64,000 nucleotides of DNA from Saccostrea echinata (lineage: Eukaryota). This document shows, piece after piece, positions 11,901 to 62,200 of this stretch. The stretch lies in assembly GCF_033153115.1 (NCBI RefSeq), contig NW_026889751.1, positions 27,652,001-27,716,000 on the forward strand, in the 5' to 3' direction. A program made the position numbers and the translations under genes. Every line of letters starts with the position of its first letter. The first letter of the stretch is position 1. The notes under the pieces were generated by a model that worked only from the letters and a program-made list of their open reading frames with translations, was not told where the DNA came from and did not search any database.

Positions 11901-14900
11901 AGAAAGGATATGGCATGGCTGATATCTCAGTCCTGCGGACTTTTTTGCCAGGTTGTTTAAAGTCTCGGAGTTGTCGTAGGTGTAGGTAGTGTGAAATCAG
12001 TGGACTGCGACCACTCGTATTGAAGAGGACCCTCTCATATTCGGGTCCAGGACCCAGCTGGTGAGACTAAAATAGAAGAGTCAAATAACTGATAATGGCA
12101 TTAGCTAGATAGAAAACACATCACAAATCTCAGTGACAATGCACTGAAACAGATGCAGACATTTACTGATACAAATGCACTGTATATCAAAATTGGTCCT
12201 TATTTATGCACTCAGGAAGAGTAACTTTGAAGCAAAGCCTCATATCAAAAGATTAATTCTGATGCAAAGTTGGTAATGTATCCACATTTGACTGTAGGGC
12301 ATTTGCATTAATTTGAAGTTTAATTGTGAATTAATGTAAACCATTTCAGCTTTATTTCAAAACTCTAAATTAATGATTTCATTTCTTGCAAACTAATTTA
12401 AAGCAAAATCCAGATTGTAAAGGTCTATGATAAGATTTTTTTTTTTTTACAAAATCAACCTTTTTTTTTCTCTTTTTATTTTATTACATGATTTCTTGAT
12501 AAATCTTTTTCTTTAATTTTTCTCCTGAGAAGTGGTTGATTTAATACAAGATTTCTTGATAAATCTATACCTCTTAATTTTTCTCCACCCTATGAGAAGT
12601 GGTTGATTTAATACAAGATTTGTTGATAAATCTACCTCTTTTTTCTCCACCCTATGAGAAGTGGTACCACACGTAGCCAGCCTAGAGGTGGATCCTTGAG
12701 ACAGGGCAGTGGGAGGGACATTAAAGTTGTGGGAGGCTATGGACAACCCATTCGTCATGTTGGTGAAGTTTGTCATCGTGGTGAGTTTGGTCATCTCTCG
12801 GGACACATTCTGGGGGGTGGGGCTGACAGAGGAAGGGGGACCTGTGTGGTTCCCACCCAGAGAAGCCATCATTCTATTGAAGGAATCCATGTCCAAACTC
12901 AGATTCACTTGAAAAGATAGTCAAAAATTATAACAAAAGCATTACATTACTCCTGCATTTTAGGTTAAATGCTTTAGAATACCCTGTAACTGCCTAGATG
13001 AAATAGTCTGGTGAAATCATAAATAGAAATTTGTTTTTTCGTGCACTGATTTTTGTTATCTAGTGCATTTCTCTGCCTCCTGAGTTTATCCTGTTACACT
13101 ACATGTAATCCATGTATAAGTTTCTTACTTTCTTTATTGAGAGCGGCTGCCTGCATCAGTTTCGTGGTTGCTTGGTTCGATTCCCTCTCCAGTCCTTTTG
13201 GTGCTTTTGCCTCCATCTTCTGTATGTTCCATGTTTTCCAGGTTCCAGGAACAGGTTTTAATCCTACCGAAAATTTAGAGAATTGTTTTGTTAGACAGTT
13301 GACAAAACCTGACCCACATAAGAACATTGCAGTATATTATCTGCTAATTGTTCCTTATTAATGCACTCATTAAAGACCTAGTTATTCTTTACAAACCAAT
13401 TATTTTCTGTTTGGTTTTCTATTTGACTTGCCTGTAACCCACTCATGAACAACATTTAGTAAGTCTTGTTTGAAGGATTCATCCATTTTGGCATGGGATT
13501 CTGGGAATGCTGTCCAATAAGCCATGTAGATAGCCTGAGCAAGGCAGTCTGGGTATACCTACAACACAGATGTTGTTGTTAAACAAACATTGATGGTAAA
13601 GCATGATTTCTCAGAAACCCAGATTGTAGATAATAAAAGAGTGTAATAGATAATATATAAATGTGATGTGTCAATTTAAAGTACATAAATGCAACCCAGC
13701 TTTTCCATACCGAAAGAAATTTGTCCTTGACGTCTTTGTGGATACTGGCAAACAGACCAACAAAACTATCAGCGATTCTGTCATATAGAAGATTCTTCTC
13801 ATCTTCACTATTACGCTGGAAAAGGAACAATATTCTAATAAAAGCTAGTGTCTGCATATTGTATTGTAATCCAAAAACTAGAAAAATGTCCATAGGACAT
13901 GAATGCCCTGCTCAAGGTACATTTGTATTGCATCATGAACAGAAATGTACCACCCTTCTTTGGTGAGAGATATCATAATAGTAAAATATGATGAAAGAGG
14001 AATAATTTACTTGCATATATTTTTTTCACATTCAGAACTTAGGTAACTGCAAAATGAAGAAGGAATATTGAGGACAAGGTCATACAGTAGGAAAATTCAT
14101 GGTAAGAGAATAAGAGAATAATGACACAGTGGAATTGCTCTCACCAATATGAATCTTAGTATATGAAGTTTGATTAAAAATCTTCAAAAGTGAAGGTCGT
14201 GGTAATGAGAAGAATGAAGCCAAAAGGAAGGTCTGACAAGGTAAAAAAATAATGACAGTTAGATTGTTCTTTCCAATAAGTAACTGTATATAAAATTTGG
14301 TTAAAATATCTTAAAAAGTTAAGTTTATGTCATAGGGAAGGTCAAGCTCAGAAAATTATGACACAGTTGGATAATTCTCACCAATTTGTATTAGTGTAAG
14401 TATGAAGTTTGATGAAGATATTAAGAATAATTTCTTCTTATCTGTGCTAAATGTAAAACATTTAATAGTGAGATTAAGGTCATATGGAAGGTCAAGATCA
14501 GAATTAATAGCTCTTATCTTTAAGAGTTCATTTGAAACATAAAAGCAAAATGAGGAATAATGGTGTTTAAGTTATAGGTAAGGTCAAGGTCAAAAAATTA
14601 TGACACAGTTGAATACCTCCCACTAGAATGTATCAATGTAAGAGTTTTGATAATAATATCTCTTTGAAACTGAGCTAAACACAAAATAGGGAATATTGAG
14701 GTCAAGGCCACATGGAAGGTCAGGGTCAGAAAATACTGACACAGTTAAATAGCTTTCATAATTTGCATCTTTGTTTGAAGTTTGATAAAAATCATGAACC
14801 ATCTCTTTCAAAACTAAGTTAAATGCAAATTAAGGAATAATGGGTCAAGGTCATGGAAAATTTCCAGATCAGAATATTATGACACCATTGAATTCTTCAG

Positions 14901-23700: not shown

Positions 23701-26700
23701 GGTCAGCTCAGTGAAAGAAGTACCACCAGTAACAATTTGAGACACACCTGCTGTAAGTTAACTCTATGGTTTGATATTTCATAATTATGTATCTTTTGGG
23801 GTAGTCACTTCAATAGTTGTATTTGCAAGTATATCATACTACAGTATGATATATTTGCAAATACTACTGTATATAATACTATATCTAGTCCTAATCTGAA
23901 TCTGTTGCCATATTCACTTGGCCAGGGCTTCATACATATTTAGTCACTGTGATAAGAACTGTTAGTGACCAGCCATTTTCTTTGAAAATAAATTAAGCCA
24001 TTGGTTCTTTACTCTGTTTTACAAACAAGTTACCGGTACATTAATTATGACAAAAATCAAGCAAATATAGCCCTTTACCATTTCAATTTATAAAACTGTT
24101 CATCATTCATCAATATTGCCATCATTTGTAGTATTAAATGAACAATTTACAAAAAACACATCTTTGAATTCTTGATTAGTGACCCATCAGGCCCAGGAAG
24201 TTTACCTTTGTTATATAAATCACACAGATCCGATCCTATACCTTACAATTTACACCAACCCAAATTAACCTGCATCCAGAAATGCAACATAGCTGATTAA
24301 TTCATCAGACTAATACATGTTGTTAATTCATATTTAATGCAGCGTCATGTCTAGGTTGTGGATCATCTAAGAATCAAAAGAGATTTAACCTAGATACAAG
24401 TGAGATTATTCTATTTTGTTTTTCATAATTTGTGTCCTTTTCTACACAACTACATCATATCTGACACAAATATTCTATCTTTTGATAACTACTGATTTTA
24501 CAGCTGTAATTCTGGAATATAGGATACGTGCCGACTCCCTTAAGATGGCTGCTATGTCTTCTTGACTCCCCAGTAGAAATGCCTCGTCAGAGATATCCAA
24601 AGCCCCCTCTGATGTCAATCTCTGGGGCCATTCCTCCTGTAAAATAAATATGTGTAAACATTCGTAGGGTACAAAGACCCTGATTTCTATCAGAGATTCT
24701 TATGAATCATATATACAAAAAATGTGAGAAATACTGGCAAGATTTGGGGTTGGGTTGCACTCAAATCTCACTGAAAGACTCTCCTATCCTCCTTTCAAAA
24801 CTCTGTGTGTGACTTGTACTAACAGACTGATTTATGTTTATAAATTTTTTTATCATAAATTATTTAATTAGGTTTTTTTGTATTTGGAATTCTAATTTTC
24901 ACTATTCTAGAAATTTGTCCTACAATAACCAGGTCCGGCACAATCTCTTGATTAAGCTATATAGCTTGATTTAGCTATACAGCTTTATTAAGCTATTCAG
25001 AATAGCTTGATTTAGCTATTTTATCACACTTTTTAATCAAATGTGTTATTTTCCAAGTATGCACAAAAAGTCGCACCTTGATGCAGTGATAATATTCAAC
25101 CTTGAACTCTTATGAAAATAATGCATGTAAAAATCACTCATCAAATTGCGTCTCCTTAAGAGACTTTGTACTCAAAGTTCTAAAAGTTTTGGGGCTATAT
25201 AAAGCAATTGATACTGTTACTTCTACAATGAAATTATAAAGGAGGCCAATTATGGTCAACAAGATAACTGATTGGTAATAATTCAGTACAGTGAGAAGCA
25301 ATCATACTTATCCATGCTTCAACGCACAGAAGGTAGTGTACAGTTACCCAAACAATGGAAATTCATCTTTTGCTTAAAAGTATTCAAATGCCGCAATGTT
25401 AGAACTATCTTTGATTTGGGTTGTTGATTTGATAACCCATATTACACATATGAATAGTCAAATATTTGAGACTTTTTGTCTATTTTGTACAAATAACATT
25501 TTTGTGAAAACCTGCATATAAATAGCTTTATCAAGCTATTTTGAATAGCTTGATAAAGCTATATAGCTAAATCAAGCTACATAGCTTAAGGTAGTATGGG
25601 ATACCTCCACGTTATGACGTATTTCCGTTTGAAGTATTGTTTTGATTTGCATGAGTGCTTATTATCGGGTCAAAATTTGTAGATACACTGTTGAAAAGAA
25701 CACTCTGAAGCCTATTTCAATGCAAGTTCTCACAAGTCGGCATTTTAAGTAAAAACAGACAAAAAAATCGCAAGTATATAAATTTACTTATAATTGTACA
25801 ACGGACATTTAAAAAAGCAAACCCCTGTAAAAGGTAGTTTCAACATTGCTGCTTTTGAACACTTTTAAGCAAAAGCTGTATTTCAATTGTTTGAGTAACT
25901 GTACAGCACCTTGTGTGCGGTGAGGCATGGATAAGTGCGATTACTTCACATTGTGCTGAATTATCACCAATCAATTATCACGTTAACCAGAGCTGGACTT
26001 TTTTGTTATTTAATTCAAGAAGAAACTGTTTGGTCACAAATCAGCTAGCTGTTGTATATAGTCCCAAAACGTAGCTGATGAATGCAATTGCTCTGAACAA
26101 GACACGTCCTGGAAAGCGATTGTCCATGCATTGTTTTCAAAACCGCTCAAAGTTGAAAACTACAAAGTGCGATTTTTTTATGGTTGGGAAAAAATGCTCA
26201 TCATTTCTAAAATAGCACCCAGGTTTTTTCAGCCCTTGGAAAATAAAGAAGGATAACTCTTCCGCTCGGATCTTTTAATTCAAAAAATTTTAAATGCATT
26301 TTATATTTTCCATTTATATATATATATTTTCAATTTGTTTATTTCACTTTGCTAACATATCAAGATACATTCTTATTGTAGATTTTCATGAAATGTTATC
26401 CGTCTGTTTTCAAGAAATAAAGTTTTCCCAGTTTTTTACGCTTATTTTTTGTTGAAAATTAAAAAAATACTAAGACATATTTCTTGTCATTTTTGTTTTT
26501 ATAAACACTTTAAATTAGCAAACGCCTGCCTATAATATTAAGCTTATGAAAAAGAATTATGCAAGAAAAAAAATCGTTTTTGTATTTCTCATTAAAATAA
26601 TAAAAAAATTATTAAAATTACACTTTAATATACTGAAAGGTGGGGGTATTTCAAATCCTTCTAATTTGGGTACATAAATATGTAGGAGAAGTTTCGTTTG

Positions 26701-27185
26701 GTATCCCATACCACCTTAATCAAGAGATTGTGCCGGACCTGATAACTGACTTAGTTTTACCATATTGAAGAATGGTGATTTTAATTATTTTTTCCCTTTT
26801 TGCAACTTTAAGCTAAACTGCCAAATTAACAAGCACAGAAATTACACAAAACATATGTTATTAAGTCACTGTTCCTAGTATTTACAAAAAAAAAATCTTA
26901 TTTGGAAATTAATTTAAAAAGTTAATGGTCTGAATGCACTTTATCTGACTACTAGATCTAAATGAAACAAGAAAGGATAAGAAATTATAAGATCACAGAA
27001 CTAAAATGGGAATCTGTTAAAATGGAATGTACCAGTCCCTCAGCATTCATGAACTCCTCATAGTTTGTGGGGGGTTTGGGTTTTTTCTTCTCTTCCTGTA
27101 CTGCCTCCTGTGGCTTATCTTCTTCTCTGGGCATGTCATACTGAGCCATGATGGCTGCAATACGGGGATCCATCACTGACACCAT
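8920..27185 (-). CDS. FAM227B: FAM227B-like protein (FWWh domain), multi-exon
   Basis: Phase-consistent exons 27033-27185, 24528-24636, 23479-23619, 22987-23057, 17458-17607, 15399-15497, 13711-13815, 13432-13558, 13129-13263, 12636-12907, 11912-12066, 11528-11605, 11146-11296, (9859-9876, 9681-9725), 8920-9009. Motifs [46 protein letters not shown] and [14 protein letters not shown] are typical of FAM227. Confidence 0.85.
11606..11911 (-). other. U12-type (minor spliceosome) AT-AC intron in FAM227B-like gene
   Basis: Donor |ATATCCTTT at 11911, branch site TGCCTTAAC (11622-11614), acceptor AC| at 11606; the junction restores frame (MP|PPG). Confidence 0.85.
12490..12665 (-). repeat. Tandem duplication (~64-bp unit, ~3 copies) of exon 3' end plus 5' splice site
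   Basis: Plus-strand unit 'gataaatcta(ta)cctctt..ttttctccaccctatgagaagtgg' is repeated; the first copy includes the real donor gag|gtagat at 12635. Confidence 0.75.
13876..15191 (+). mobile_element. Helentron/HINE-like element (AGGTCA-repeat family), diverged
   Basis: Same 5' (atgtccataggacatgaatgccc) and 3' (caaacactatatgcc...atggcataaaa) ends as 2361-3214, with ~8 degenerate internal repeats. Confidence 0.65.
15197..15282. mobile_element. 86-bp hairpin MITE with 9-bp TSD (Mutator-like)
   Basis: 41-bp arms with 1 mismatch, 4-nt loop; TSD aaaattgtt at 15188-15196 and 15283-15291. One arm recurs at 30261-30303. Confidence 0.8.
15890..17482 (-). repeat. Minisatellite of 30-bp and 48/49-bp units derived from the FAM227B exon end plus 5' splice site
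   Basis: Minus-strand units 'accaaggcccaa(c/a)actttaat|gtaagtgta' and '...aat|gtaagtataaatagacctgtaagggtc' match the true exon end 'gtcacaaaggcccaaaactttaat|gtaagt' at 17458. Confidence 0.9.
17792..17968. mobile_element. Tc1/mariner-pogo type MITE
   Basis: TA|cagtcaaacctcgttatctc...gataccgaagttcaactg|TA. Confidence 0.65.
18141..20790 (+). mobile_element. Helentron/HINE element carrying a ~166-bp satellite array (Cg170/HindIII-like)
   Basis: 5' aacaagaggccc...gctcacctgagc subTIR; ~13 tandem ~166-bp monomers (tggccccacccgacc marker at 18406 to 20389); (gaca/gacg)n; 3' 'aaagctcacttgagccttcggctcaggtgagctaaaaa'. This architecture matches oyster HINE/pearl-like elements. Confidence 0.85.
22230..22975 (-). 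repeat. ~23-25-bp degenerate minisatellite immediately downstream of a FAM227B donor site
   Basis: Units like 'ttaccattacttttagactag' (minus strand: ctagtctaaaagtaatggtaa); they become more homogeneous towards the exon at 22987. Confidence 0.75.
24930..26741. mobile_element. Non-autonomous DNA transposon with ~90-bp TIRs (CAGG...CCTG) and 5-bp TSD
   Basis: TIR caggtccggcacaatctcttgattaagctat... and its reverse complement ending ...ttaatcaagagattgtgccggacctg; TSD ataac at 24925-24929 and 26742-26746. The right TIR is split by a nested element. Confidence 0.85.
25590..26715. mobile_element. Kolobok-like non-autonomous transposon nested in the right TIR of the previous element
   Basis: TTAA TSD (25586-25589, 26716-26719); TIRs ggtagtatgggatacc / ggtatcccataccacc. 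Confidence 0.8.
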
Positions 27186-27344
27186 AATATTACTCCTGGC
27201 TAAGATACAGAATTAATCAGCGGACGGTACAATACTTCAAATGCATTAATAAAAATAAAATTGTAGAGAAAAAAGTTTATATTAAATAATAAACGATACT
27301 GTAAGGTTTATTCCTGATGAAATTATAACAAAATTCTGTTCACG

Positions 27345-28801: not shown

Positions 28802-28978
28802 CGATGCTAAACATTTTCCGAGGAAATTCGAAATGTTACTATATGTATCGTCGATATTTTTATGCTTTGTTTTGTATTAATTCTTTCCACAATGAATCAG
28901 TATATATTTTTGAGTTCTTATCTACGCCATTAAACATAAATATCGCACGGTTTAAGCTAGTTTATACTAGATACTTAC

Positions 28979-29198
28979 CTTATTACATCTTGTCCGTTGT
29001 CAAGTACGCAAACTAATTTTCTTCAAATGACAAAGCAAAACCTAGATGAGTTCCGATAATCCGAGATGGAACTCTTCTGCGTTCGAAGGTAACAAAACGA
29101 AGAAAGGCGCCATTTTTGTGAAAATTGCAAGGTAGCAGAAGTGCTATTTGATATGATTTTAACGTTAATCAAGTAATATATAATTTTCTTGCTGTATG
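28979..29198. promoter_or_regulatory. Putative bidirectional promoter and 5'UTR exons, FAM227B / ATR
   Basis: Minus-strand donor ag|gtaagt at 28978 and plus-strand donor tg|gtaagt at 29199 face outward; a YY1-like ggcgccatttt (~29107) lies between them. Confidence 0.5.
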
Positions 29199-29702
29199 GT
29201 AAGTCATCTAAGGGAGCATAGGTAAAATAAATACTGAATATAATCAATTCAAAGTCGTAACTGTCTCGACACATCATCTGATCATAGTATCCCACATTCA
29301 ACAGGTAGGGACCACTTGTCAAATTAATAGGATTGTTATGGGTTCGTTTGTTGCTTAATTCGCAGAATTAAAAAAAAAATTTCAAACAATTTATTGGAAG
29401 TGTATCAGTCAAACACTTGAAGCGTCAGCACTGCGCATGTATGCACTCTATAAATCTTTTAGAACCTAGCTTATTCATGGTTTAGAACTAGTCCGAAATA
29501 TCTGACGTTTTCCTGGCTTTTTCAACGATTTGATATTTTACGTGCCAGGAAACCATCAGAACCGGCGCCATTAGGAAAATTTTTGAAAAAAAATAAATTC
29601 AGAGAACCACTAAAAGATTGTTTAACTTTCCTTTAAGTTAAGATAATCCATGGAAATTATGCTTAATGGTTCATTTTTCCACCGAGAAATTAGAGAATAC
29701 AC

Positions 29703-30517: not shown

Positions 30518-33500
30518 ATGTCAAGAAAGCAGCTAGCAGAGGTTCTTCAACTATTACAGAGGTATTTACACAGTTGGTCAAATTAAGCTACATGTTGGAA
30601 TAAATTGTAACAAAAAATATACTGTTGCATGTTTCACCCCACTGACTCAATCATCCTAACCCTAAACTCTGATAGGTCACTTGAGTCACTCAGGTGATAA
30701 TTGTTATAGATCAGTTCTTGTCTGTTATGGTGTGTCCTCTATTATTTGTAAACTTTTATACATTGCCAGCAATTTCTCTGAAATGGCTGAAACAATTTCA
30801 AGAAACTTTTGTCCCGTGCAGGATCACTAAATTTCATTTGTCTGCCAGTCACACAAACTTAAAGTGCAAGGACATTTATCCTATTTGTCTGTCTGTCCAT
30901 CCATCTGTCAATCACAGAAACTTAAATAACCTTGGTCATAACTTCTTAATGAGAGAAAGTAGGGCTTTCACAGTAAACATGTGCATTAATTCAACAGACT
31001 TTTTCATTTTCTTTCAAGGGGCTTAAACAGATTTGAAGTTAATATTTTCTCAATTTTTCTGTATAACTTCATGACTTATATGTTGCTATAGCATTTCACA
31101 TGGAAATATAACAAAAAACTTATTTATCTGGAAATTATTGAAATTACAAATTTAGGGATGTGTTTGATTGACACATCCTTGCACTTTCACAAAGTAAACC
31201 TTATCACTAGTTCTTAAAAAAAGTAGAAATTTTGTTGTGTATTAATGAAAAATATTAAAACTATGATCCAGAAAATTCAGCGTAGAAATGTGAGAAAGCA
31301 AAACCAACTCACCAGTATTGTCAGTCTGTGCTCATTGATGTGTGCAGAGTTTAACAAATTGAACACACCCTGTGAAACATAAACATTAACAATAACATGT
31401 TGAGCTTGTGCCTTGTTTACTGAAACAGTTTATGTTGCATGGATGTATTGAATTTGTTAAACTCTGCACACATCACTGAGCACGGACTGACAATACTGGT
31501 GAGTTGGTTTTGTTTTCTCACATTTCAACGCTGAATTTTCTGGATTATAGTTTTAATATTTTTCATTAACACCCAACAAAATTTCTACTTTTCTTAAGTA
31601 TTAAGGATTAAATTTACTTTGTGAAAGTGCAAGGATGTGCCTATCAAACACGTCCTGGAATTCGTAGTTTTAATAATTTCTAGATAAAATAACTTTTTCA
31701 TTATATTTCTGTGTGAAATGCTATAGCAACATATAAGTCATGATATTATACACAAAATTTGAGAAAATATTAACTGCAAATCTGTGTCTTAGCCCCTTTA
31801 AAGGGTATACATTGTATCTATATGGTATAAAGTTTAATTATTGTAATGTTTTTCTGTGATTTTAATGCTTCAGTTATGGTTTCACTGCAGATATTTGATT
31901 TTCTTCACTTGTCCTTCACATTTAGCTACAAACAGATTGTCATTATTGTCTGTACACAGTCCCATGGGGTTACTATGTGCACATTTTATATAACGGAGGA
32001 ACTGTCCATTCTGGTCTATGATGTGTACACAGTCATTGTTATGATCAGCTGTAAGGATGTGACTCTGACTGTCTGTGGTGATTCCTCGTGGACTGAATGG
32101 TTCGTTCTTTGGAGCAGGAGTATGTCCAGTGTACCTGAATCTCAGTTTCCCGGCCTGACTGACCACCACTACTGCTCTAGCTCCACTGTCAGACACACAG
32201 ATATCCAGGTTCCTGTTCTCACTGATGTATTTATATTCAATTAAAAAAATACTTCTTGATGATGAATAAAGTGGTTGACCTTTATCATCAAACTGAATGG
32301 TTTGTTTCTTTGTGGAGCCAGAGTAACGGACAACTTTTGATTGTTTGTTGTCATCAGTGTCCATGACAACCAGGAGGTCACCAGAGGAGGTACTACAGAC
32401 ACCAAGAGGTTCCCAGTTCTGTAGTCTGATCACCTCCTCTATCTTCTCATTCTTCACAATGTTCACAGTCCTATCACTGTCATCAATATAAACCAGATCT
32501 CCACTTTTTGTCACTGTTAAGTCCTCTGGTTCATTCCCTGACTTGGTTTTGATTGACTTGAGCAGTGATCGTTGAATGAAGCTGAACAATTTCATGATTT
32601 TGTCATTCCCACTTGTCCAGATTTCTTCATTTCTCAGACAGGCCACATTGTAAAGCCTTTCATACCCAGTGACTGCAGAAATGACAACTTCTGGTTCATC
32701 AAGCAGTTGTTTGGATGGAGGAGAGGATCCAGCTTCTGGTGAAATCTGTGTTGTCTTTATGCTGTAGCCCTGGTTTTCAGAAGTGAAAGAACTTGATGAT
32801 AAGGTTCCAAAAATTTTACTAAATTTTTCTCTTTGGATTCTTCCTGAAGTAAATTTAGGTAAAGAGGGCACTATTTTTTCTGGAAGATTTCTGTGTTTAT
32901 TTATATCATACGTTACACTGAATAGTTTGGAAATATCATAAGAATCCATAGCAACATCAATTGAATCGATTTCATCTTTGATTTCAGAAATTTTCTTGTT
33001 TATTTCATCCAGATGTTCCTGTAGAGTTTGTAGCTGTGTGTTTTTCATCAGATCAACTTCAGCTTTAAGTTTCTGGACAAGTTTGTCAATTTCTCTGTGC
33101 CAGTCCTCTCCATGTTTTGTTATGGCTGTTGAGAGGTCTCCATATTCCTTTTCTAACTGACTCATTCTGTTTTGTACATCAGAGGCAATGTCTTGGTAGG
33201 TTGGGTAAATTATTTCATTTAGTTCAGTTTGTTCTTTTTTGATCATATCCTTTTTTTCATCAAGAACTTGTAAGATTTTTAATAATTTATGACCTAGATG
33301 TTCATCAGAAGCAAGGCAGGTGACACACACCGGAATGTCACATTGATTACAGTACATTTCACATCGTTCTTTGATATGAGATGTACATCCAGGGTAGAGA
33401 AGAGTGGATTTTCTATGAATAAATCGAACAATTTTGTGTTTTTTGGATTCATCAGATATCATGTGTTCTCCCACACAGGCTTTACACAGGTTGACAAGAC

Positions 33501-48500: not shown

Positions 48501-51500
48501 NNNNNNNNNNNNNNNNNNNNNNNNNNNNNNNNNNNNNNNNNNNNNNNNNNNNNNNNNCAGCTTTCACTTTGATGGTGTGTGTTGCTGCTGGTCATTTTGT
48601 ATTAACTGAGGAATAATCTGTTTGTAGCCTTCACTCGATGGTTTTTACTGAAGATGATATGGCTACAGAGTAAACCAGAGTGTGCAGGATTACATGTTAA
48701 GTGTCAGAAAATTTCTGTGGAACTGCTACAAGTCATCAAATGGGGAGATCTCTTCTCTTTCTCCCAACTCTTGACGGAGCTGATTTATACCATCGCAGGT
48801 ATGTGGAAATTTCCATTTTACATGGTGCCAGCTATCACACCCAACAAAATGTATTAATTTTTTCTTGGTCCTTGTTTGAAGTTAGTTTTTTTTTTTTTCA
48901 AAGCTTGACTCGTTGAACCCCAAGAAGTTTACTATTCCCTGAATTCAAGTTTGTTAGTTTGAACTTAAAATTGATAAACTTCAGCCTAATTATAAGATAA
49001 TGGTGCCTTGGAAACTAAATTTGAAATTTTGTAGCTTAATATGTCTGCTTTTGTTTAACTTTATTCTTAAATAGAACTAGTCAAGATCAATGAAAACCTC
49101 TACAACGGAGATGCTGGGAGCACTCTACGGAGATTTTCTGTAGACAAGGACACGGTGAAGAGGAGCTTAAGGGACCCAGTAAAGGTACGAGTTATTACAC
49201 AGTATGCAGCCTAAAAAAAGCCTTACTTGAATATCCTTGGAAAAAATTTTAAATGAAAATCATGGGGATTTCATAGATATTCATGAGAAAAAATTATTTG
49301 GGGGGGGGGGGGGCATAAGTGTTTCATAAACATCTCTTGTTTTAATTACAGGATGATGTAGAAACTGAAACAGACATCATCACTATACCAAGTTTGGACA
49401 TATTTACAGTAGAGGAGTGTGAAAGTTTACAGATGAACTTAACGTAAGTATATTGAAGGGGGGGGGGGGGGATTTTCGTGGATTGCTGAAATTGTACAGA
49501 TTTATTATTGTCAAAGGAAGTTTTGTACACCTGCATAATGTATAACAATTTCCTTTCAGCATTGAATTCTACAAAGAAAATTTAGTCAGTTTAAAATTTT
49601 TTTTTTATTGTTAAAATAACGGTCTATTTCTATTTCTAGGAAAGTATTACTGTCCTTGTGTGATGACCTTGATTTGGTGGGGAATCCCCTGTGTGACGTG
49701 GTTTGGGGAGCCATGTGCTGCCATCTGGAATTTTATGATCTGGAGATGAAAATTGTGAGTAGATTTCTGATTCCACCAAGAATCCTTCAAAGTTAGCATT
49801 CAGATTGCATTTGCGATTTTTGCCATTTCTTTCAAAATCCTATTCCTGCAATACCAAAGAAATGGGATTTTAATATTTTTCAATTCTGTTTTTTTTTTTT
49901 TTTTCATTTTTGTGTCTGAACTCTAAATTTCCAACATTGCAGAATTAACTTATTATATACTGTATCTTATTTATATGTGTTTGGTGAACTTTAATTCCTG
50001 TAGGAGTCCCTGAGAGTAATTGAGAAGTTGTTGTTGGAGGGACTTCCACAGATTCACATACACGACTACTTCATTGCCTGCCTTAGTGCTCTAGTAGAAC
50101 TGCTGTGTGAGGGCTGTAAGGAGGCAGAAATCAGGTAGTATTTGAATGATTGGGTCTGAGCTTCATACAGTAAAACATTGACACTTATAGCGAAGGGATT
50201 TTCATCATTCTCCATGTCTTTTAAATATATTGTGAATTTTAACAGATGTAACGAATTATGTTTATAACGAAGCAAAATTGTCCATCCCTGGTACTTTGTT
50301 ATAAGCGTGTTTTACTGTATTTAGAATGACATTTTTACTTGGCCTGCTGTGTGGTTGGTTTGATTAAAAAATAAAACCTTTCCCAAATACCGGTATTTGG
50401 ACATGTATATGTGTGAAGATAGCTTATGTCTTGTTTCATTCTTGTAGGATGTTTTAGTAAATAATATACAGTATGTACATGTACTTGTGAAGAAGTCTCT
50501 ACAAAATCCAGTGATCAAAATTAAAAACGATCTGAGGATCAGTGATTTTCATTTAGCATGTCTGACATCCAAAAGTCAATAGCAAGGGTTGTCATTGATT
50601 TCAATGCAGTTTCTGAATTGTGTTTCCAATGCTTTAGACACTTTTACAGTATATTTTTAGGGTGTGTGTGCATGTTCTATCAATATTCCTTATTAAAATT
50701 GGATCAAAAAGTAAGGTTATCAGTATGATCCAAATCTAGAACAATCTGTGTTTTAGGTAAAGATATTACCTATTTAAACTTCAGCTCTCCAAAGTTTTCT
50801 GTGAATATTCCCTGTATATGTAAATCAGATATTGTAGTGGAGTCCTGTATACAGGATTATTTTTGCTTCTTGGTATTTTCACACTTTTACACTTTTAATT
50901 TTGCCCCATTTTAAGTTATTCCAGACACAGCAGTTTTGTTCAAAGAGAGTTAACTGTTGAATTGCTCCGTTTTAATTTTCCATCTGACAACAAGATTGAA
51001 GGAGTTGAAAATAAAAGGAAGACAATAAAATTTCCCTATTAACATGTCTTTTCTGATTCCACAGTGAAAGGCAGACACTAGAGGAGAGGACGGCCCAGGT
51101 TCTGTTGAGTGTGTGTCTGGCCGACAAGAAGCCCCTGACCCCCAATCACCTGTCAGACTTCCAGCACCAAAACATCCTACAGAAAATATGTCACCACATC
51201 CAACAACATGGCTTCCACAACATGGTTACTGTTGCCATGGCAATGTCCTTGTCTGACCTACTGAGTCATTGCTTAGAGGCTCTTACTGTAGTTGGTCCCT
51301 TGGAAGGGGAAACTAAACACATCAAAGACCAAGTCTTTTCAGTACTGTTACAGGAAGTTGGAAAGAATACTAGGTCAAAGGTAAGTAAAAGTATGAAAGG
51401 TCAAGTGACATTAAACTGAGTTTAAAAAGTTATTTTTGAAAATAATTGAGATAAATGGTTTTCTGATTTTTTTTGGTTTTGTGTGCAGTACCTGGTGAGG

Positions 51501-54500
51501 CCTCTGGTGATTTTGTTAATGTCTGACATCAGACAGACGTACAGTGGACTAACAGATACATCAGTTACCATGGCAATGGACAAAACAGATACAGGTGCCT
51601 CACAGTTTAAACGCAAAAGGTAATTTACATGTATATATCACAAATACATGTACATGAAAAATTCATCAATGTATCAGATTAAAGAATGTAAGAATTTATT
51701 GACTTGTCTTGATCATTTTTTTTAACAGAAAGGCAGATGAACAGCCTACCCAACAGAAGGCAAAACCACCACACAGATACCTGAGACTGAAATCAAAGAT
51801 TAAAAAACTAATCAGTAGCTTAAAGGACCCAAACCAGGTAAAGAATGGGGTTAATTTATCACACCACACTGGAACATCATTGGTGGATGTATTTGACCTT
51901 TTATTTATTGTATACAGGACAAGCATGCAGAGATTTTGGAGGGGATTCACACAGCTATAAAGGTGATCAGTGTGGGCGTCATGACAAGTTCTGAGGCTTC
52001 ATCTAACCACAAGAAAATGTAAGTACCTCTACACTAAAGCTAATAAAACAGGGCTTTCATCTTACCACAAGAAAATGTAAGTACCTCTAGACTAGAGTTG
52101 ATAAAACAGAGGCTTCTTCTAACCACAAGAAAATGCAAGTTCCTCTACACTAGAGCTAATAAAACAGGGCCTTCATCGAACCACAAAAAACGTAAGTACC
52201 TCTAGACTAGAGTTAATAAAACTGAGGCTTCCGCTAACCACAAGAAAATGTAAGTTCCTCTCTAAGAAAATGTGAGGTTTTGTGTGGTCTTCAAAGTGTA
52301 TTGTAATATCCACTTTTTCATGGGGTCAAATATTCCCTGTTTGAGGAATATACATTGGTTTGTGGGGATTTTATTTTGTAATTGATGAAGTGTAACATTG
52401 TCTTGATTACAATTGTAACATTTCATGTTGTCTTGATTACAATTGTAATATTTCATGGAGGACATGAATTTCTGGTTTCTTTCTACCAGACAAACAAAAA
52501 AAAATAACCCCCACGAAAATAAATGATTTCATAGTAAGTTCCTCTTTAGCTAATAAATGTGAGTCTTCATATAACCAAGAATAAATATGTTATTTTCTAA
52601 GCCCCCCCCCCCCCACCAAAAAAAAACACCCAAGTCTTCACCTTCCCCCTAACAATGCAAGTTCTTCTGAAATAGGTTTTTATTATGGAAAGGTTTCAAT
52701 CTGCTCTATGGTTTTGTTTGTATTATCAGTCTTCCAGAAGATGCAAGCTCTTTGTTGTTATGGTTACCACGTGACCTTGTGGAGAGTGTCCTTGACACCT
52801 GGAAGTTGACCTTGCAGTACAGTCACCACTGGAATCCTGATGAACTGAATATAAACACACTGTCTATTGTTAGGTCAATAGTGGCCCTGCTAGACACACA
52901 AGGTATTATCTAAAGACTTTTAGAAAGATTAAAAATCCAATACATTGATTCGTAAACTTCATTTTTTGCTGACCAGTCTACCTGTTTACCTTTTACTGCT
53001 AAACTTTTTGAATACATTAACATTAATGATAGTTCATTTCTATTAAATGCATGGGTGTTAAGCCATCAGTCTTACAATCAGTCACAATTAATTGTTGGAT
53101 GTGAAGAAACTGATAATCTCAGATGATTTAATCAGTTAAAATTTCAAAGAAAAGCAATTCACATCTCCTTTTTTGAACCATTATTTTAGCTTCTTAATTC
53201 TGTGAGGTATATGTGTTACATACATGTATGAAGAGAATAAATAAATATAGTGTTTGTCACAATTTGTGATAATGGTATGGAAATATTCCCTCGCTGTAAC
53301 CAAATCTTTGAAAAAGAACAAAGAGTAAGTGCAAACAAGTTTATTATAGTGCTCCAAAAAAAAAATGCAAAGAATATCTGCACACCTCCACACACACACA
53401 ACACGCACATCTACAACACTCGCACAAATAAAAAAAAAAAAAACAAAAAAAAAACCAAACAAACAAAATAATAATAAACAAAAAAAATAATGATAGTATC
53501 AATATACCGACTATAATAGAGTCATACCAGACCCGACAAATGTTTTATTGCCATGTGCGAATAAAATCAAAATCGGAAACACTGACTGGCGAGACCACAG
53601 AGGTTGACCCAAGACGTTACCGTATACTGTTCATAGACACACAGTCGTTGGTTACTCATGGAATTACGGTTACAACACTGTCCAAAGGTCGCACGTCCCT
53701 CTAGCCTTCAACGCCTTAGTACGTAGAATTTCCTCGAATGTCTCAGTATGCCATAATGTTCATCTGCTACTGTAAACACGCACATACACAGCTGGTCACC
53801 TATAATAACACATTATTTAAAGGTCTGGGTTTCCATAGTCGGTAATAAACGCATTCATAAGGAATACTTGAATATGTCGGGTACAATATCTAGTACAAAT
53901 AAAACTGAACTTAACAAAGTAATGAAATAATAACTTTTTCTTTAAAAAAAAAAAATAACAAAAAAAACCTAGCTAACAAAATATACAGTTCAAACTCACC
54001 GCTGCCAAAGTTCTCAAAATTACTCTACTGTCCACACAGGAAAACTTCTCGAACACACACAAAACATTCAGGCCCAAAGCACGTAGCTATTTCTCTCGCG
54101 ACCACACAGGTCATACAACATTTGTACTTAGGAAGGACACACCTTCTCACTTCTACGGCCTGCTCAGAACTAACTTACACGTAGACAAAATTGTTAAAAC
54201 CGGTCTGGCAGCCGTGACCAGCTATCCGTAACGACTATACGATGAGAATGAACCTATGGTACACCATAACCAACATAATCAAATTAAACAAAATTGTGAC
54301 AATACCTCCCCTTTTAAGTTTCAAAATTGGAAATCATATTTTGAGAGTAAACATGAAACAACTATATTTACAAAACATGACGACTCAAAAAATCAGCGCC
54401 CACGTTATCAACACCTTTGATAGCATGAACTACAAAATTATAGGACTGCAGAAAGATGGCCCAGCGCATTAACCTACCATTTGAAACTTTTGATCTGTTC

Positions 54501-57500
54501 AGATACACCAATGGCTGATGATCTGTCTGCAAAAGGAAAGTCCTACCGTACAAGTATGCCTGAAATTTTCTTACAGCCCATACAATAGCTAAGCACTCTT
54601 TCTCAATCACAGAATAACTTCTCTCTCTTTCATTCAACTTTCTACTGGCATATGCCACTGGAAACATTTTCTCATGCATTTGCAATAAAACAGCACCTAT
54701 TCCGTAGTCGGAAGCATCTGTTCTGAGAAAGAAATCTCTTTTAAAGTCTGGGAGTCTCAGAATTGGGGCATGTAACAGTAATGACTTTAAATTCATAAAA
54801 GATCTCTCATGTTCATCGCACCATTCAATTTTATTTGGGGTGCCTTTTTTAGTCAAATCCGTCAAAGGACAAGCAACAACAGCAAAATTGGGAACAAACT
54901 TACGGTAATAACCAATCAGTCTCAAGAAAGAATGTACCTGTTTCTTGGTTTCAGGACGAGGGGCATTCTTGATTGCTTCAAGTTTGTCATTATTAGGTCG
55001 CATTACACCATTTCCAACTGAGTGACCTAAAAAATCAAGTGAGCTAAAACCTATAAAACATTTAGAAGGTTTTGCATTCAGTTTCCCCGACCGTAGTCTT
55101 TCTAATAGACACCTAATAGACACCAAATGTTCTTCCCAAGTTTCAGAATGAGTTAAGATGTCGTCAATGAAACTATCGGTATCTTTTAAATCTTTCAACA
55201 GAACACGCATCATACGATTAAATGTGGCCGCCGCGTTTGATAAACCGAATGGCATTACTTTGAACCTAAACAAACCATCAGGAGTGACGAATGATGTCAG
55301 GTCTTTGTCCTCATCCCTCATAGGAATTTGCCAGTATCCTTTGCAAAGGTCTACTTTAGTAAAATACTTACTTTGTCCAATTCTAGCAAAAATTTCCTCG
55401 GGATCAGGCATTGGTTCGGCATCAAACACTGTCACCTTGTTTAGCTTTCTAAAGTCGATGCATATTCTCTTAGAACCATCAGCTTTCTTGGCAACAACAA
55501 TAGAGCTGGCGTACGGAGATTCGGACGGCTCTATAATGTCCATCTCAATCATTTTCTTGATTTCTTCCCTAACGGAATCACGCAAAGCAAATGGAATTTG
55601 ATACAGCTTGTTGCGAATAGGATCCGTAGTTGTCAGATGTATCTCATGTTGAGCCAAATGAGTAAGATTAGGTAAATCAGACAAAACATCTTTGAATTCT
55701 GATAAAATCTTTTTGACGTCCTCTTGTTGCGATTCAGTCAGATCCGCGTCAACATTCACGTTTTCAAATGTTTCCTTGGCTTCGGAAGGCGGTATCTCTA
55801 GAGGGAAATCACTCTCGACTTCTAAATTCTCACCATCTTGAGGTATTTCTTCTTCTATGACAGAGCAAGAACTAAGAACTTCAGGTGAATTTGTTTCTCT
55901 TTCAACATACTTCTTCAAAAGGTTAGCGTGGAAAGTCTTGATTTTGCCCTGAACATCAACTTTGTAGTCAGCCATTCCACATTTGGAAACGATGGTAAAT
56001 GGACCCTTCCATTGCATGAGTAGCTTATTTTTGTCCGTTGGAAGGAGGATTAAAACCTTGTCCTGGACACTGAATGAACGTGAACTTGTTTTCCGATCGT
56101 AATATTTCTTATAGCGCTGACTGGACTTCTGTAAGGACTTTCTAGCTAATTCACATGTCTCTTCTAAGCGCTCTTTCAAGTCGATCACATATTGATAAGT
56201 GCTCTTGACTTCTGGGTCTTTTAATTCCTTCGTCCACATCTCTCGTAGAACTGTCATCGGTCCCCGGACTGATCGACCATATAATAATTCAAATGGGGAA
56301 AAACCCATGCTATCTTGAGGAACTTCGCGGTATGCAAACAATAAAGGTGCTATATACCTGTCCCAGTCTTTGGGTCTTTCAGCAGCCATACGTCTAAGCA
56401 TTTGTTTAAGTGTTCCATTGAACTTTTCAACTAAACCATTGCAGGCAGGATGGTACGGAGTGGTTGTTAGTTGTGCAATGGAAAGTAGACGACCTACCTC
56501 TTTCATAAGGTTAGACGTAAACTGGGTTCCCATATCTGATAAAATCTCCTTAGGAATTCCAAGTCTAGTGAAGAATTCAAACATTGCCTCAGCAACACGT
56601 TCCGTCTCAATGCCTTTCAGTGCGACGGCTTCAGGGTACCTTGTACTGTAATCTACCATAGTGAGTACATACCTATTCCCACGATCGGTTGCTGGAAAAA
56701 TTGGCCCAATCAAATCTACAGCAACTCGCTCAAATGGAGTATCAATGAGGGGCATTGACTCTAGTGGAACTGGGGAGACCTTACCTTTTGGTACGGTTCG
56801 CTGACACATGTCGCAGGATCTACAATATCTTCCAACATCTCCTTGTACTCCAGGCCAATAAAAGTTAGACAATACCCTATCCGTTGTCTTTTTAATTCCC
56901 AAGTGACCAGACAGTACACAATCATGTGCAAGTTTCATAACTGTAATGCGGTGTGGTGAGGGAACAACAAACTGTCTAAAAATGTTATTGCTACTCACCT
57001 TCGGAGACTGAAAATATCGGAACAACAGATCATCTTCAATGACAAACCAAGACACATTCTGTTGTCCTGTGAACTTCCGAACACCAGTCCTTGCATATTC
57101 CCGATACTTATCCAGTGTAGCGTCCTCATTTTGTGCAACTCTCATATCATCTACTGAGGTAAAATTGTCAGTGATACTAGTTAACTTCAATGTTTTGTAC
57201 TTTTCTTTTTCCTTCTGAACTTGATTTCTTGTCTGTACGGCTGAGCCTACCACCAATTCTTGTGTATCGATTTCCACAACTTCGTTGTTATTTCTGCGAG
57301 TGTCCCATTTTGGATCAGGGTCTGATGGATCTCTGGCGCCGTCTATATTACCTATGATTAAACCATAGACTGGGTTGTTCATACATAGAGCTTTGACCTT
57401 ACCTGATATGAACGGTGTATGTATGTTGATGTACGCCTCAGGAACTTTCCGGACAGTTCCGTCAATGAGTACACATTCCACATTCCGCCCTGTCAGCTGG

Positions 57501-59190
57501 TCTTGAGAAACTAGACTGTGTTTTACTACAACCCCACTGCATCCACTGTCTCGCAGAACCTCCACAGAATGATTACCTACATACCCATCTGAAACTGGCA
57601 TATTATGACAAACACGACAAGCTCCACCAATAACTGGTAACATATGTCCACAGCGTAATGTTACTTGATTGTTCTGTATACAACAATCTTTTAGTTTATC
57701 TGACAAAATGCACAAAGAACCTACATGTTTACCTGATTCAGGGGATTGGTTTCCTAGTTGATTCTCTACCTCAACATCCAATTTCTGGAGCTGTGACTTC
57801 GTAGATCGGGAAGTAACCCTTGATGAAGAACCAGAGGTTAACATCGCTGCGCTTTTGTAAGTGTGGGTACGAATTCCTTTCTTAAGCCTGTCAAAACAAT
57901 CTCTAGCGATGTGTCCAGTTCGACCACACTCATAACACTTTCTATCATTCTTACCTGTACTTGAAAAAGGTTTCTTTTGAACCGTTGTTGATGTTGACCT
58001 CACATCATCGGTCGCTACTCGATAATTTGTGCGATCGTAAGAAAATGAAGAAGTGCCATGCGCTTCAATAAACTGTTCTGCTAAACGCGTCATTTCCTTA
58101 ACATCTTTCGGGTGACGTTCTCGTAAGAAAGTAGCTAAAGTCTTACTACAACTTGAAATAAATTGTTCGCGCAACATAAGATCTTTTAAGCCTTCAAACG
58201 TTGATGGGGATATCGCGAGTTCCATCCACCTTTTCAGATAATTGTCTAAACGCGCGAAGAATTGAGGGGGATTCTCCCCTTTTTCTGGCTTGCTACCTCT
58301 GAATTTCTCGCGGAAACCTTCTTCAGACAATCTAAACCTCTGAAGCAACGAACATTTGAGCTTATCATAATCAAATGCATCGCCAGGAGATAAACGAGAG
58401 TAAACCTCAAGAGCAGTACCTGTAAGCAAAGCACTAAGATTTATTGACCATGTATCCTTAGACCATTTAGCATTTTCTGCAAACCTTTCAAATCTTTGTA
58501 GATAAGCGTCAATACAGTCTCTTTGATCATTAAATGGAGGAAGTTTGGGCAACTTAGCACGACTTTGAACAGACACATCAGGGGACATGGGGGTACTTTG
58601 ATGCTTAGAGTTAATTTCTAATGCTAATGCCTCTGCTTTTGCTCTCTCTAACTGAATTTGTTTTTCCAACAATGCCAAATGATTGTTTGATTCTTTCATT
58701 TGCATCTCCATGCTCAACTCTTTTTCTTTTCTCCTAGACTCTTGCTCACATTGCACTATCTGCAAATCAAGTTCTTTCTCTTCTCTTTTCGCCTCTCTTT
58801 CCTTTGCTCTCTCCTCTCTTAACAATTTATCTTCTTCAATTTTTCTTTCAGCTCTCTCTTTTTCTCTAACATATTCTAACAACTGATCTCCTTGCAAACC
58901 TAACTTTTGCCCAATCTCTACTAATTTCTCTAACTCTTTCTCCATTTTCAAAGTTCAGTTAAATCAGCGTAAGGATAATGTGATCTTAAATATTTCCATC
59001 CCGGACGAGCCCCCAATTGTCACAATTTGTGATAATGGCATGGAAATATTCCCTCGCTGTAACCAAATCTTTGAAAAAGAACAAAGAGTAAGTGCAAACA
59101 AGTTTATTATAGTGCTCCAAAAAAAAAATGCAAAGAATATCTGCACACCTCCACACACACACAACACGCACATCTACAACACTCGCACAA

Positions 59191-59221
<31 letters not shown>

Positions 59222-62200
59222 CAAACAAACAAAATAATAATAAACAAAAAAAATAATGATAGTATCAATATACCAACTATAATAGAGTCATACCAGACCC
59301 GACAAATGTTTTATTGCCATGTGCGAATAAAATCAAAATCGGAAACACTGACTGGCGAGACCACAGAGGTTGACCCAAGACGTTACCGTATACTGTTCAT
59401 AGACACACAGTCGTTGGTTACTCATGGAATTACGGTTACAACACTGTCCAAAGGTCGCACGTCCCTCTAGCCTTCAACGCCTTAGTACGTAGAATTTCCT
59501 CGAATGTCTCAGTATGCCATAATGTTCATCTGCTACTGTAAACACGCACATACACAGCTGGTCACCTATAATAACACATTATTTAAAGGTCTGGGTTTCC
59601 ATAGTCGGTAATAAACGCATTCATAAGGAATACTTGAATATGTCGGGTACATTATCTAGTACAAATAAAACTGAACTTAACAAAGTAATGAAATAATAAC
59701 TTTTTCTTTAAAAAAAAAAAAATAACAAAAAAAACCTAGCTAACAAAATATACAGTTCAAACTCACCGCTGCCAAAGTTCTCAAAATTACTCTACTGTCC
59801 ACACAGGAAAACTTCTCGAACACACACAAAACATTCAGGCCCAAAGCACGTAGCTTTTTCTCTCGCGACCACACAGGTCATACAACATTTGTACTTAGGA
59901 AGGACACACCTTCTCACTTCTACGGCCTGCTCAGAACTAACTTACACGTAGACAAAATTGTTAAAACCGGTCTGGCAGCCGTGACCAGCTATCCGTAACG
60001 ACTATACGATGAGAATGAACCTATGGTACACCATAACCAACATAATCAAATTAAACAAAATTGTGACAGTGTTAAATATTGTTTTATGTAGAGTGGACTG
60101 ATCATGAAGATACAATGTGCTGGATATTGTCGTTACCATGGTTACTTGTAAGTACATGTAGATATAAGACCCTAAGCTGTTCAATGTCTCAATTTGAGTT
60201 GCATCTAAAACCTCAATATCTTGTGCATGACAGCACTTTGGAAAAACTTTGAGATTTCAGAGAAGAAGTTGAAACTAAAATTTGATTCAAGTCTGCGACT
60301 GCCAACTGAATTTGACTTGTACTGAGTATAATTTGACTGATCCATGTCATAGAAACCAAAGTTTAACCATTAAATTGCTAATCAAATCCACTATTTTATT
60401 TCCACACAATTTGACTGATCCATGTCATAGAAACCAAAGTTTAACCATTAAATTGCTAATCAAATCCACTATTTTATTTCCACACAGAATGATCCCTCAT
60501 GGATGGACCTGAAACCAGCAGAGACTAAGACAGTCAGCAAGATCAGTCAAGAAATCTCAGAAAAATTGGGTGAAAATTACTTTTGCAAATACATGCAATT
60601 AAGAGCATTTCAGAAATAGAGATTGCTCTCAGGTTTATATCAGATATGTTTGAAGAGAATTTTATCATTGTATCTGTGTTCATTGCAGATAATGAAGTCA
60701 GATGTGAGTGTCTTAGAGGGTTGTCTTTGTTGCCTAAAGACGTTTCCCCCCAGTGGAGGGTACATGTGTACCGGCAAGCATGTGTAAGTAACCCAACCCC
60801 ACATGTAGATATGTAATAAAATGTAACTTAAAAGTATTACAGATTTACAAATGTTACTTCTGTGTTAACAGACAGACTCCGATACTGAAGTGAAAATAGC
60901 AGCTGTCCAGTGTCTACCCATGTTACTGGTTCATCTGGGACCAAATGCAAATCACCTGGTTCATGACCTTTTGCTGTATGTTTTTGTTGGTTTTAATCCT
61001 TGAGTGGATAACGATGATGAAATCCAATGATATGTTATGAAAAGTTTTTTTGATGTCTCTTTAATACCATTTTTATTATGATAGACCTATGGTCAATAAA
61101 CCTGATTCTGTGACCCAGGAAGCTTTAGTCTCAATAGCTGGAATTCTGGCCTGTGTCATTTGTAGAAAGGCTGTACTCAGGTGAGTCATTCAGGCCCATT
61201 GTTCACAGCAATTATTATTTTGATGTACAGTGGAGCTTTGTTAATCTGAATGCCAATAATCCGGATGATTTGCTTGGGAACACAAGCGACTGGATTAATG
61301 AAGAGCATAGAAGCAGTTGTAGAAATTAATGAAGACTTCAACTTCTAACTTTTTTTTTTCAGAAAAGAGAGAAATAAGTTTGCTTTGGTGGATCACTGTC
61401 GTAAGATCCAGTGTTTATCTTGTGACAACCTGCTGGGTGGGTATTTTACAAAATCACCGGAGTCACATGACTAATTGCTATCTCTTCCAAAATCAAGTTC
61501 TTATTCTCATCAATAATAATGACAGTAATTATAATTTAATAATTATTGTACAAATGAAAGTTGGAAATTTTGTCTAATGTAGATATTAGGAGATTAAATA
61601 CATTATTAGGTACAGCGGGAAGTTCCCCTATTTTGGTAGATTGATTTCTGTTTTCAGATAAACATGAGAATGCTTCATCAAAAGAGAGACCCAAACTTGT
61701 CGATCCAAATATGTTTTCACCTTTCCTGAATCTTATCGGCAGACACAACACTCAAGTGAAACTAAGTCAGTATTTTATTTTTCTTTTTACAAATTAAGAT
61801 TATGACAATTAAAAGAATTGCAGTTGATGCTATGTACATGTATGAGATAAATATTTGTATAACATTCATCCAAATAAATGTTTTAAATTAATATTGATTG
61901 ATTAATCGTTTATTGTTTAACGCCGAGTCCGCAATATTTCAGCCATGCTTCGGCGGATATTAGATTAATAAAGGGAATGATAAATTCTACACAACAGCCT
62001 ATAAATCATTTGTTATACATGTATAATTATGGTATAATTGTGGTCTCATAAAAGCAGTTAGCCTTGCACAATAATATAACCAATTGCTTTAAATCAAACA
62101 GAATTATTTAAGAACACTATCCCCATCTGTTTTAAGTAAACAGGCTTAAACATTTAGTGCCATAGGAAAGAAAAAAACAGCATTCAAATTTGACCCTATA

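What the first reader, a model, noticed from the sequence alone, without database searches (positions are those of the whole stretch)
12490..60485. Recurrent tandem duplication precisely at splice junctions in two unrelated genes
Seen: at least six independent events straddle or abut exon boundaries. FAM227B: 12490-12665 (donor x3), 15890-17482 (donor x~40), 22230-22975 (donor-adjacent ATGGTAA units), 23372-23470 (exon 3' half plus donor), 23685-23712 (acceptor copy). ATR: 51993-52261 (donor x5), 60330-60485 (acceptor region x2). Inference: this may be a lineage-wide mutational bias (co-transcriptional R-loop or slippage at splice sites) and a route to intron gain or sliding and to exon repeat expansion.
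Basis: partly seen in the sequence, partly recalled or inferred. Interest (0 to 1): 0.7.

Follow-up and report, generated by a model that had tools for sequence, protein, structure and literature searches.

The report
Oyster splice-junction "mirage" minisatellites
In a rock oyster, short pieces covering an exon edge and its splice signal have been copied head-to-tail into the neighbouring intron; this repeat type is already known from lancelets and humans, repeats of this size sit on exon edges several times more often than chance in unrelated genes, the transcripts checked use only the copy next to the exon, and the copies likely arise from recombination repair that slips at exon edges.

Summary
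Mostly real, and a known kind. Of seven listed events, four tandem repeats span donors (12635, 17457, 23478, 52019) and one is a displaced acceptor copy. Two only abut a junction; the 21-bp array is not junction-derived. A missed acceptor duplication lies at 17602-17674. These are "mirage" minisatellites (lancelet Adh3 and globins; human F7), which this scan has noted in this genome and at least 13 genomes in all.

Held-out test, 589 dynein introns: with all tandem repeats counted there is no enrichment (19 vs 18.6 expected). Without dispersed-repeat arrays it is 19 of 56 vs 9.2. The excess lies in units of 29-110 bp (17 of 25 vs 5.1; class chosen after seeing the list). An independent annotation-free set gave 14 of 39 vs 4.6. 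Arrays cluster in 5 of 15 genes.

Copies keep GT/AG (177 of 197), yet RNA contigs use the exon-proximal site at all three arrays tested. One donor array has 2 vs 7 copies between haplotype-like contigs. Breakpoints are not at the splice site. I found no sign of intron gain, sliding or exon expansion. The mechanism is inferred, not shown.

The parts
8923..27185 (-). FAM227B coding region, 15 exons and 14 introns (one AT-AC, one GC-AG)
   Evidence: spliced alignment of P0002, P0004, P0006; intron ends
12480..12665 (-). 67-bp x~2.8 repeat spanning donor 12635 (30 nt exonic); one extra copy keeps GT
15880..17484 (-). 30/48-bp minisatellite, 40 copies of donor 17457 (35 with GT), degenerate at the far end
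17602..17674 (-).
22230..22974 (-). 21-bp intronic array starting 12 nt after donor 22986; not derived from the junction
23370..23577 (-). 106-bp x2 duplication: 99 nt of exon 3 plus donor 23478
23686..23711 (-). displaced 26-bp copy (23 of 26) of acceptor 23620, 75 bp upstream, AG kept
48009..64000 (+). ATR, 5' coding exons (gene continues beyond the window; a candidate first exon near 30518-30561 is not verified)
   Evidence: RNA joints; frame test; identity
51991..52261 (+). 58-bp x4.7 minisatellite spanning donor 52019; first donor used in RNA contigs of 3 of 4 runs, the fourth not covering it
60330..60486 (+). perfect 78-bp x2 duplication of the intron end; stops before the G of acceptor AG 60487

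Best explanation
These are 'mirage' minisatellites: 30-110-bp pieces covering an exon edge and its splice signal, copied in tandem into the intron and skipped in the transcripts checked, and they likely arise when recombination-type repair between very different alleles slips at the edge of the conserved exon. Shown: the repeats; their excess at junctions for this size class; their clustering in some genes; copy-number difference between haplotype-like contigs; use of the exon-proximal site at three arrays. Inferred: exons are the indel-free islands where two oyster alleles can pair, so strand exchange or repair synthesis starts there and mis-anneals on running into the indel-rich intron. Further unequal exchange then amplifies the unit. 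Wholly exonic events would be purged by selection. Straddling ones would survive because exon-proximal site choice leaves the mRNA intact.
For: Enrichment: 19 of 56 non-dispersed arrays span a junction vs 9.2 (P 5e-4). Units of 40-110 bp: 14 of 16 vs 3.9, or vs 6.5 when GC-matched; unchanged over four TRF settings and without masking. Independent annotation-free set with the class fixed beforehand: 14 of 39 vs 4.6, P 6e-5.
Annotation check: 13 of 13 displayed GT..AG joints match my introns, including the first donor of a 61-bp array (4 of 4 runs) and the last acceptor of a 56-bp array (3 of 4 runs). ATR first donor used in 3 of 4 runs.
Tolerance: 177 of 197 copies keep the splice dinucleotide.
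Instability: 43-bp donor unit, 2 copies in C10 vs 7 in C132; a 38-bp acceptor copy in C33 absent in C81.
Homology islands: exon flanks differ 1.3% with 0 indels in 12,120 aligned bases; introns differ 2.8-3.5% with 9-11 indels per kb from 10 nt inward.
Both ends are hit (12 donors, 7 acceptors) and the junction lies anywhere in the unit.
Gene rate follows CDS CpG o/e (rho 0.68, P 0.005) and weakly GC3 (rho 0.51, P 0.053), n = 15.
Literature: most-upstream donor use shown by minigenes for human F7 (PMC1557585).
Against: No enrichment when all tandem repeats are counted (19 of 91 vs 18.6). None for units of 15-28 bp (2 vs 2.0), for units over 110 bp (0 of 4), or for two-copy duplications of 29-110 bp (2 of 8 vs 1.5), so the bias may lie in amplification and not in the first duplication. 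Without the two densest genes the whole-set test fails (6 of 40 vs 5.2), though the 29-110 class holds (6 of 12 vs 2.3, P 0.014). The size split was made after seeing the dynein list. In the annotation-free set 25 of 39 arrays were not called as junction-borne, and some are clearly interior. No recombination map was available; CpG and GC3 are indirect, post hoc proxies. Copies do not clearly look like archived alleles: single-copy duplications show 19 synonymous to 22 non-synonymous differences (46%) against 39% expected from ordinary drift (summed from rows). There is no consistent polarity of growth (8 of 14 negative). The test set is one gene family plus neighbours in about 1.46 Mb of a 923-Mb genome.
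Confidence: 0.5

Rival explanations
1. Co-transcriptional damage (R-loop, paused polymerase or spliceosome) at splice sites seeds the duplications.
For: Excess at junctions survives GC matching. A 24-nt copy test peaks at the junction (2.2% donors, 2.0% acceptors) and falls to about 0.2-1% at 60-130 nt inside the intron.
Against: Breakpoints are not at the splice site. Donors and acceptors are hit alike (13 and 12 of 589), though their chemistry differs. 10 of 15 dynein genes have none while one has 9 (dispersion P 4e-5). Germline expression was not measured.
Confidence: 0.2
2. Survivorship only: duplications arise evenly, but those anchored on an exon stay recognisable and expandable longer because one copy is held by selection.
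For: Two-copy duplications match the null (3 of 27 vs 2.9). Exons diverge less than half as fast as introns and lack indels.
Against: My estimate from those rates is at most about a twofold gain in persistence, while the odds ratio for 29-110-bp units is 8.3 (95% CI 3.4-22). Young arrays (at least 90% matches) still give 10 of 13. Intron bases 10-59 nt from the exon are not protected from indels.
Confidence: 0.17
3. Chance in a repeat-rich genome; the window is simply a dense spot.
For: All-repeat test 19 vs 18.6. Deep-intron background including satellite-bearing elements (4.5%) exceeds the junction rate (2.2%). Strong clustering by gene. An earlier scan note (e1-7908734) found no excess in another genome.
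Against: The all-repeat null is filled by arrays over 110 bp that recur at other loci (0 of 29 span). The 29-110 class is enriched in two non-overlapping sets, including under a within-gene null.
Confidence: 0.08
4. The arrays are intermediates of intron gain or sliding, or of coding-repeat expansion, and are used in splicing.
For: Most copies keep GT or AG. PMC3087553 proposes this route as a hypothesis. The S. cucullata model P0003 contains the exon-end peptide twice at this junction.
Against: RNA contigs show only the exon-proximal site at three arrays. Only 5 of 24 units keep frame. P0002, P0004 and P0006 are colinear at these junctions. P0003 also lacks most of that exon's normal peptide and may be an annotation artefact. 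Contigs drop rare isoforms, so low-level use is not excluded.
Confidence: 0.05

Closest known systems
Amphioxus 'mirage' minisatellites (Adh3; globins BflGb6, BflGb9; troponin C; PGBD5). Read: PMC3087553 passages and section 16; PMC3902484 one passage. The original Adh3 paper, PMC117041, was not held and is known to me only through these.
   Same: Tandem unit spans an exon-intron boundary; both 5' and 3' boundaries; many copies keep AG or GT; normal splicing; copy number differs between haplotypes; unit sizes overlap (10-72 and about 150-160 bp there).
   Different: Here an oyster, and with a held-out count against a placement null, which the passages read do not give. Somatic instability is not tested here.
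Human minisatellites whose first monomer spans a donor: F7 IVS7 37-bp VNTR, CBS IVS13, 6-16, LAMIN B2, PDGF. Read: PMC1557585 abstract, introduction and results, parts 1-3 of 6.
   Same: Repeated identical donors with only, or mainly, the most upstream one used; polymorphic copy number.
   Different: Those cases are donors only; here acceptor arrays with up to 37 extra copies occur too. In CBS and 6-16 two pseudo-sites are also used, which contigs could not show here.
Intron gain by tandem genomic duplication (Rogers model). Read: passages of PMC3443670.
   Same: Short intragenic tandem duplication that includes splice-like sequence.
   Different: That model duplicates an exonic AGGT segment and creates a new intron. 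Here an existing junction is copied into its own intron and no new intron was seen.

Membership tests
mirage minisatellite | tandem unit spans an exon-intron boundary | tested here: met
   5 window arrays (donors 12635, 17457, 23478, 52019; acceptor 17608). Not met by 22230-22974, 60330-60486 or the displaced copy 23686-23711.
mirage minisatellite | occurs at both donors and acceptors | tested here: met
   window 4 donors and 1 acceptor; held-out 12 and 7
mirage minisatellite | copies retain splice signals | tested here: met
   177 of 197 copies in 24 arrays
mirage minisatellite | normal splicing at the exon-proximal copy | tested here: met
   RNA-type contigs at ATR 52019 and two dynein arrays; major form only. 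The FAM227B junctions rest on protein homology, not RNA.
mirage minisatellite | copy number varies between haplotypes | tested here: met
   2 vs 7 copies (C10 vs C132) and presence/absence (C33 vs C81) in dynein genes. These contig pairs are taken as haplotypes from 1.3% exon divergence; not tested for the window's own arrays.
mirage minisatellite | somatic instability | not testable with these tools
   needs reads from several tissues of one animal
intron gain by tandem genomic duplication | duplicated exonic segment yields a new, spliced intron | tested here: not met
   no new joint at the three arrays covered by contigs; proteins colinear

The most novel reading that the evidence does not exclude
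Exon edges in hyper-heterozygous genomes are true mutational hotspots for 30-110-bp minisatellite birth, because recombination repair starts in conserved exons and slips where allele homology breaks down. Junction arrays would then be a single-genome map of past recombination, and would explain why mirages recur in lancelets, oysters and other highly polymorphic invertebrates.
Probability: 0.3. Interest if true: 0.62.

Novelty: new member of a known kind. Interest (0 to 1): 0.33.

Why it matters
The structure is known; its origin is called unclear in PMC3087553. This work adds a held-out count in an oyster: the excess is real but confined to 29-110-bp units and to some genes, which turns an anecdote into a testable question about recombination and exon edges. 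Acceptor arrays with dozens of intact AG copies are natural tests of 3' splice-site choice. In practice such arrays are length-polymorphic markers and likely mislead gene annotation (P0003). Ten literature searches showed no genome-wide enrichment test and no bivalve report in their listings; most subscription journals are not in that library.

Tried and rejected
A homologue search with one ATR exon found nothing (0 of 73 candidates; limited to proteins of 2000 aa or less), so ATR exons beyond the window were not annotated.
The look-up of sequencing runs listed no holder on record as RNA; the runs used are guessed RNA and behave as spliced.
The Fisher test printed compared unlike counts and is discarded; one search has the like-for-like ones.
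Direction of copies (donor copies always downstream, acceptor copies always upstream) follows from geometry and is not counted as evidence.
Selection to inactivate decoy sites: not seen (7% vs 13% changed; copy detection favours intact cores).
Polar growth from the junction: 8 of 14 arrays negative, clear in one.
Archived-allele origin (lead from e1-10697621): majority differences are 37 synonymous to 31 non-synonymous vs 39% expected (P 0.009), but older array ancestry predicts this in multi-copy arrays, and single-copy cases give 19:22. Inconclusive.
Breakpoint microhomology was not evaluated.
Rows dropped: 589 of about 1,060 first-pass dynein introns passed the confidence filter. C16 gave 0 and C40 gave 2, so per-gene statistics use 15 genes. 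Arrays with unit under 15 bp or low entropy were dropped, and arrays over 50% covered by hits at other loci were dropped except in the no-mask run. At least one further dynein locus (C25 near 10.72 Mb) was not fetched.
Comparison with non-oyster molluscs was not possible: no relative genomes are held.
PMC10078293 and PMC6905558 (passages) did not bear on junction enrichment. No supplements were read; the additional files of PMC3087553 (mirage alignments) may bear on the comparison.
Full report
Setting. The window is G000:C2:27652001-27716000 in a 923-Mb genome. A FAM227B exon matches Saccostrea echinata and S. cucullata proteins at 99% and 98%, so the animal is a rock oyster. Spliced alignment with an aligner written here gave 14 introns for FAM227B (one mis-cut junction resolves as an AT-AC intron). 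For ATR, RNA-type contigs gave 10 joints. Inspection gave the rest, with an open frame of 626 codons from 48009 once a small exon at 60092-60147 was added. A downstream exon matches human ATR.

Observation. Four of the seven listed events are tandem repeats spanning a donor: 67 bp x2.8 at 12635, 30/48 bp x40 at 17457, 106 bp x2 at 23478 and 58 bp x4.7 at 52019. One is a displaced 26-bp acceptor copy (23 of 26). The 21-bp array at 22230-22974 starts 12 nt into the intron, and its unit is no more like the donor than random sequence. The 78-bp pair at 60330-60486 is wholly intronic and stops one base short of completing the AG. A 35-bp duplication over acceptor 17608 was missed.

Held-out test. 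Of about 1,060 first-pass introns, 589 passed a confidence filter and show a normal splice consensus. In one tile, 13 of 13 displayed GT..AG RNA joints matched these introns; 19 more joints were not shown. A 20-of-24 copy test found copies at 13 of 589 donors and 12 of 589 acceptors. That is above intron positions 60-130 nt away but below the all-intron background of 4.5%, which is driven by long introns.

Event level. Each TRF array was collapsed to one unit and placed at random over positions that leave the coding sequence intact. After removing arrays that recur at other loci: 19 of 56 vs 9.2 (P 5e-4; GC-matched 12.2, P 0.009). By unit: 15-28 bp, 2 of 27 vs 2.0; 29-39 bp, 3 of 9 vs 1.2; 40-110 bp, 14 of 16 vs 3.9 (GC-matched 6.5), and the same without masking; over 110 bp, 0 of 4. 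The size split was made after seeing the list, although it matches the window's units of 30-106 bp. I therefore fixed the class (29-110 bp, at least 2.6 copies) and tested the 39 arrays outside the confident introns and outside the window with an annotation-free classifier: 14 called vs 4.6 expected, P 6e-5. The classifier found 14 of 17 arrays in confident introns and missed two of the three window junction arrays in this class. Arrays are clumped: 9, 4, 3, 2 and 1 in five genes, none in ten (P 4e-5). Without the top two genes the whole-set test is null (6 of 40 vs 5.2), while the size class holds (6 of 12 vs 2.3, P 0.014).

Consequences for splicing. In 24 arrays, 177 of 197 copies keep GT or AG, and 5 of 24 units are multiples of three. 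Contigs from two studies join at the first donor of the ATR array (3 of 4 runs), at the first donor of a 61-bp dynein array (4 of 4) and at the last acceptor of a 56-bp array with six intact upstream copies (3 of 4). Contigs show only the main form. This agrees with the F7 minigene work and with lancelet RT-PCR.

Dynamics. Two contig pairs that behave as haplotypes (1.3% exon divergence) differ by 2 vs 7 copies of a 43-bp donor unit and by presence or absence of a 38-bp acceptor copy; two other junction arrays have about the same copy number in both contigs. Exon flanks had no indels in 12,120 aligned bases; introns had 9-11 per kb from 10 nt inward and 2.8-3.5% substitutions.

Mechanism. Shown: size-restricted excess, both junction types hit, junction anywhere in the unit, tolerance and instability. 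Longer persistence of an exon-anchored copy would give at most about twofold by my estimate, against an odds ratio of 8.3 (CI 3.4-22), so I infer a mutational bias, possibly in amplification since two-copy events sit at the null. I favour recombination-type repair that pairs alleles in the indel-free exon and mis-anneals at its edge, with selection removing wholly exonic products. Support is indirect: the homology-island pattern and a correlation with CpG o/e and GC3 across 15 genes. The archived-allele test was inconclusive and polarity was absent. Co-transcriptional damage and survivorship remain live rivals.

Comparison and verdict. The spanning arrays meet the tested features of lancelet mirages and resemble the human F7-type VNTRs. 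They do not meet the Rogers intron-gain model. I reached the mirage reading from the literature before opening the scan's notes, which list 37 similar findings in at least 13 genomes and two in this genome. New member of a known kind; interest 0.33, mainly for the quantified, size-specific enrichment.

Noticed in passing
window 11911-11608 (-), FAM227B: AT-AC intron with a 5' end ATATCCTTT and a CCTTAAC motif shortly before the AC, which I recall as the minor-spliceosome (U12) signature. Intron 24527-23620 begins GTATCCTAT and lacks a pyrimidine tract, so it may be U12-type too.
   Followed up: partly
window 21695-21709 (-): 15-nt candidate microexon that aligns to five residues present in the Ostrea edulis isoform P0004 and absent from P0002.
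   Followed up: partly
window about 53270-60070, in an ATR intron: LTR retrotransposon with two near-identical LTRs of about 1 kb and one 1528-aa open frame: SCAN, zinc knuckle, integrase before RT and RNase H. I recall this order as Gmr1-like.
   Followed up: partly
window 31885-33735 and 41670-43397 (-); L032 about 9230-10000: Two single-exon B-box/NHL genes nested antisense in the long first ATR intron, and a third similar sequence in a later ATR intron.
   Followed up: partly
window 35765-37399 (+): RT plus GIY-YIG open frame (Penelope-like by recall), followed by a perfect 66-bp x2 repeat at 37792-37920.
   Followed up: partly
window 6835-7992 (+): Peptidase M54 open frame, convergent with FAM227B.
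   Followed up: partly
window 18259-20465, 2526-3073, 4393-4690: 166-, 146- and 157-bp satellite-like arrays; arrays of the same periods recur in many dynein introns. A listing (PMC7492417, abstract start only) ties such arrays to Helentrons in the Pacific oyster.
   Followed up: no
L032:5892-6463 (ATR intron beyond the window): 26-bp x22 array at 99% identity starting about 55 nt after a likely donor; interior, not junction-derived.
   Followed up: no
P0003, residues about 159-222: The S. cucullata FAM227B model carries the exon-end peptide twice plus another frame of the repeat, hinting that an array at the same donor exists in that species.
   Followed up: partly
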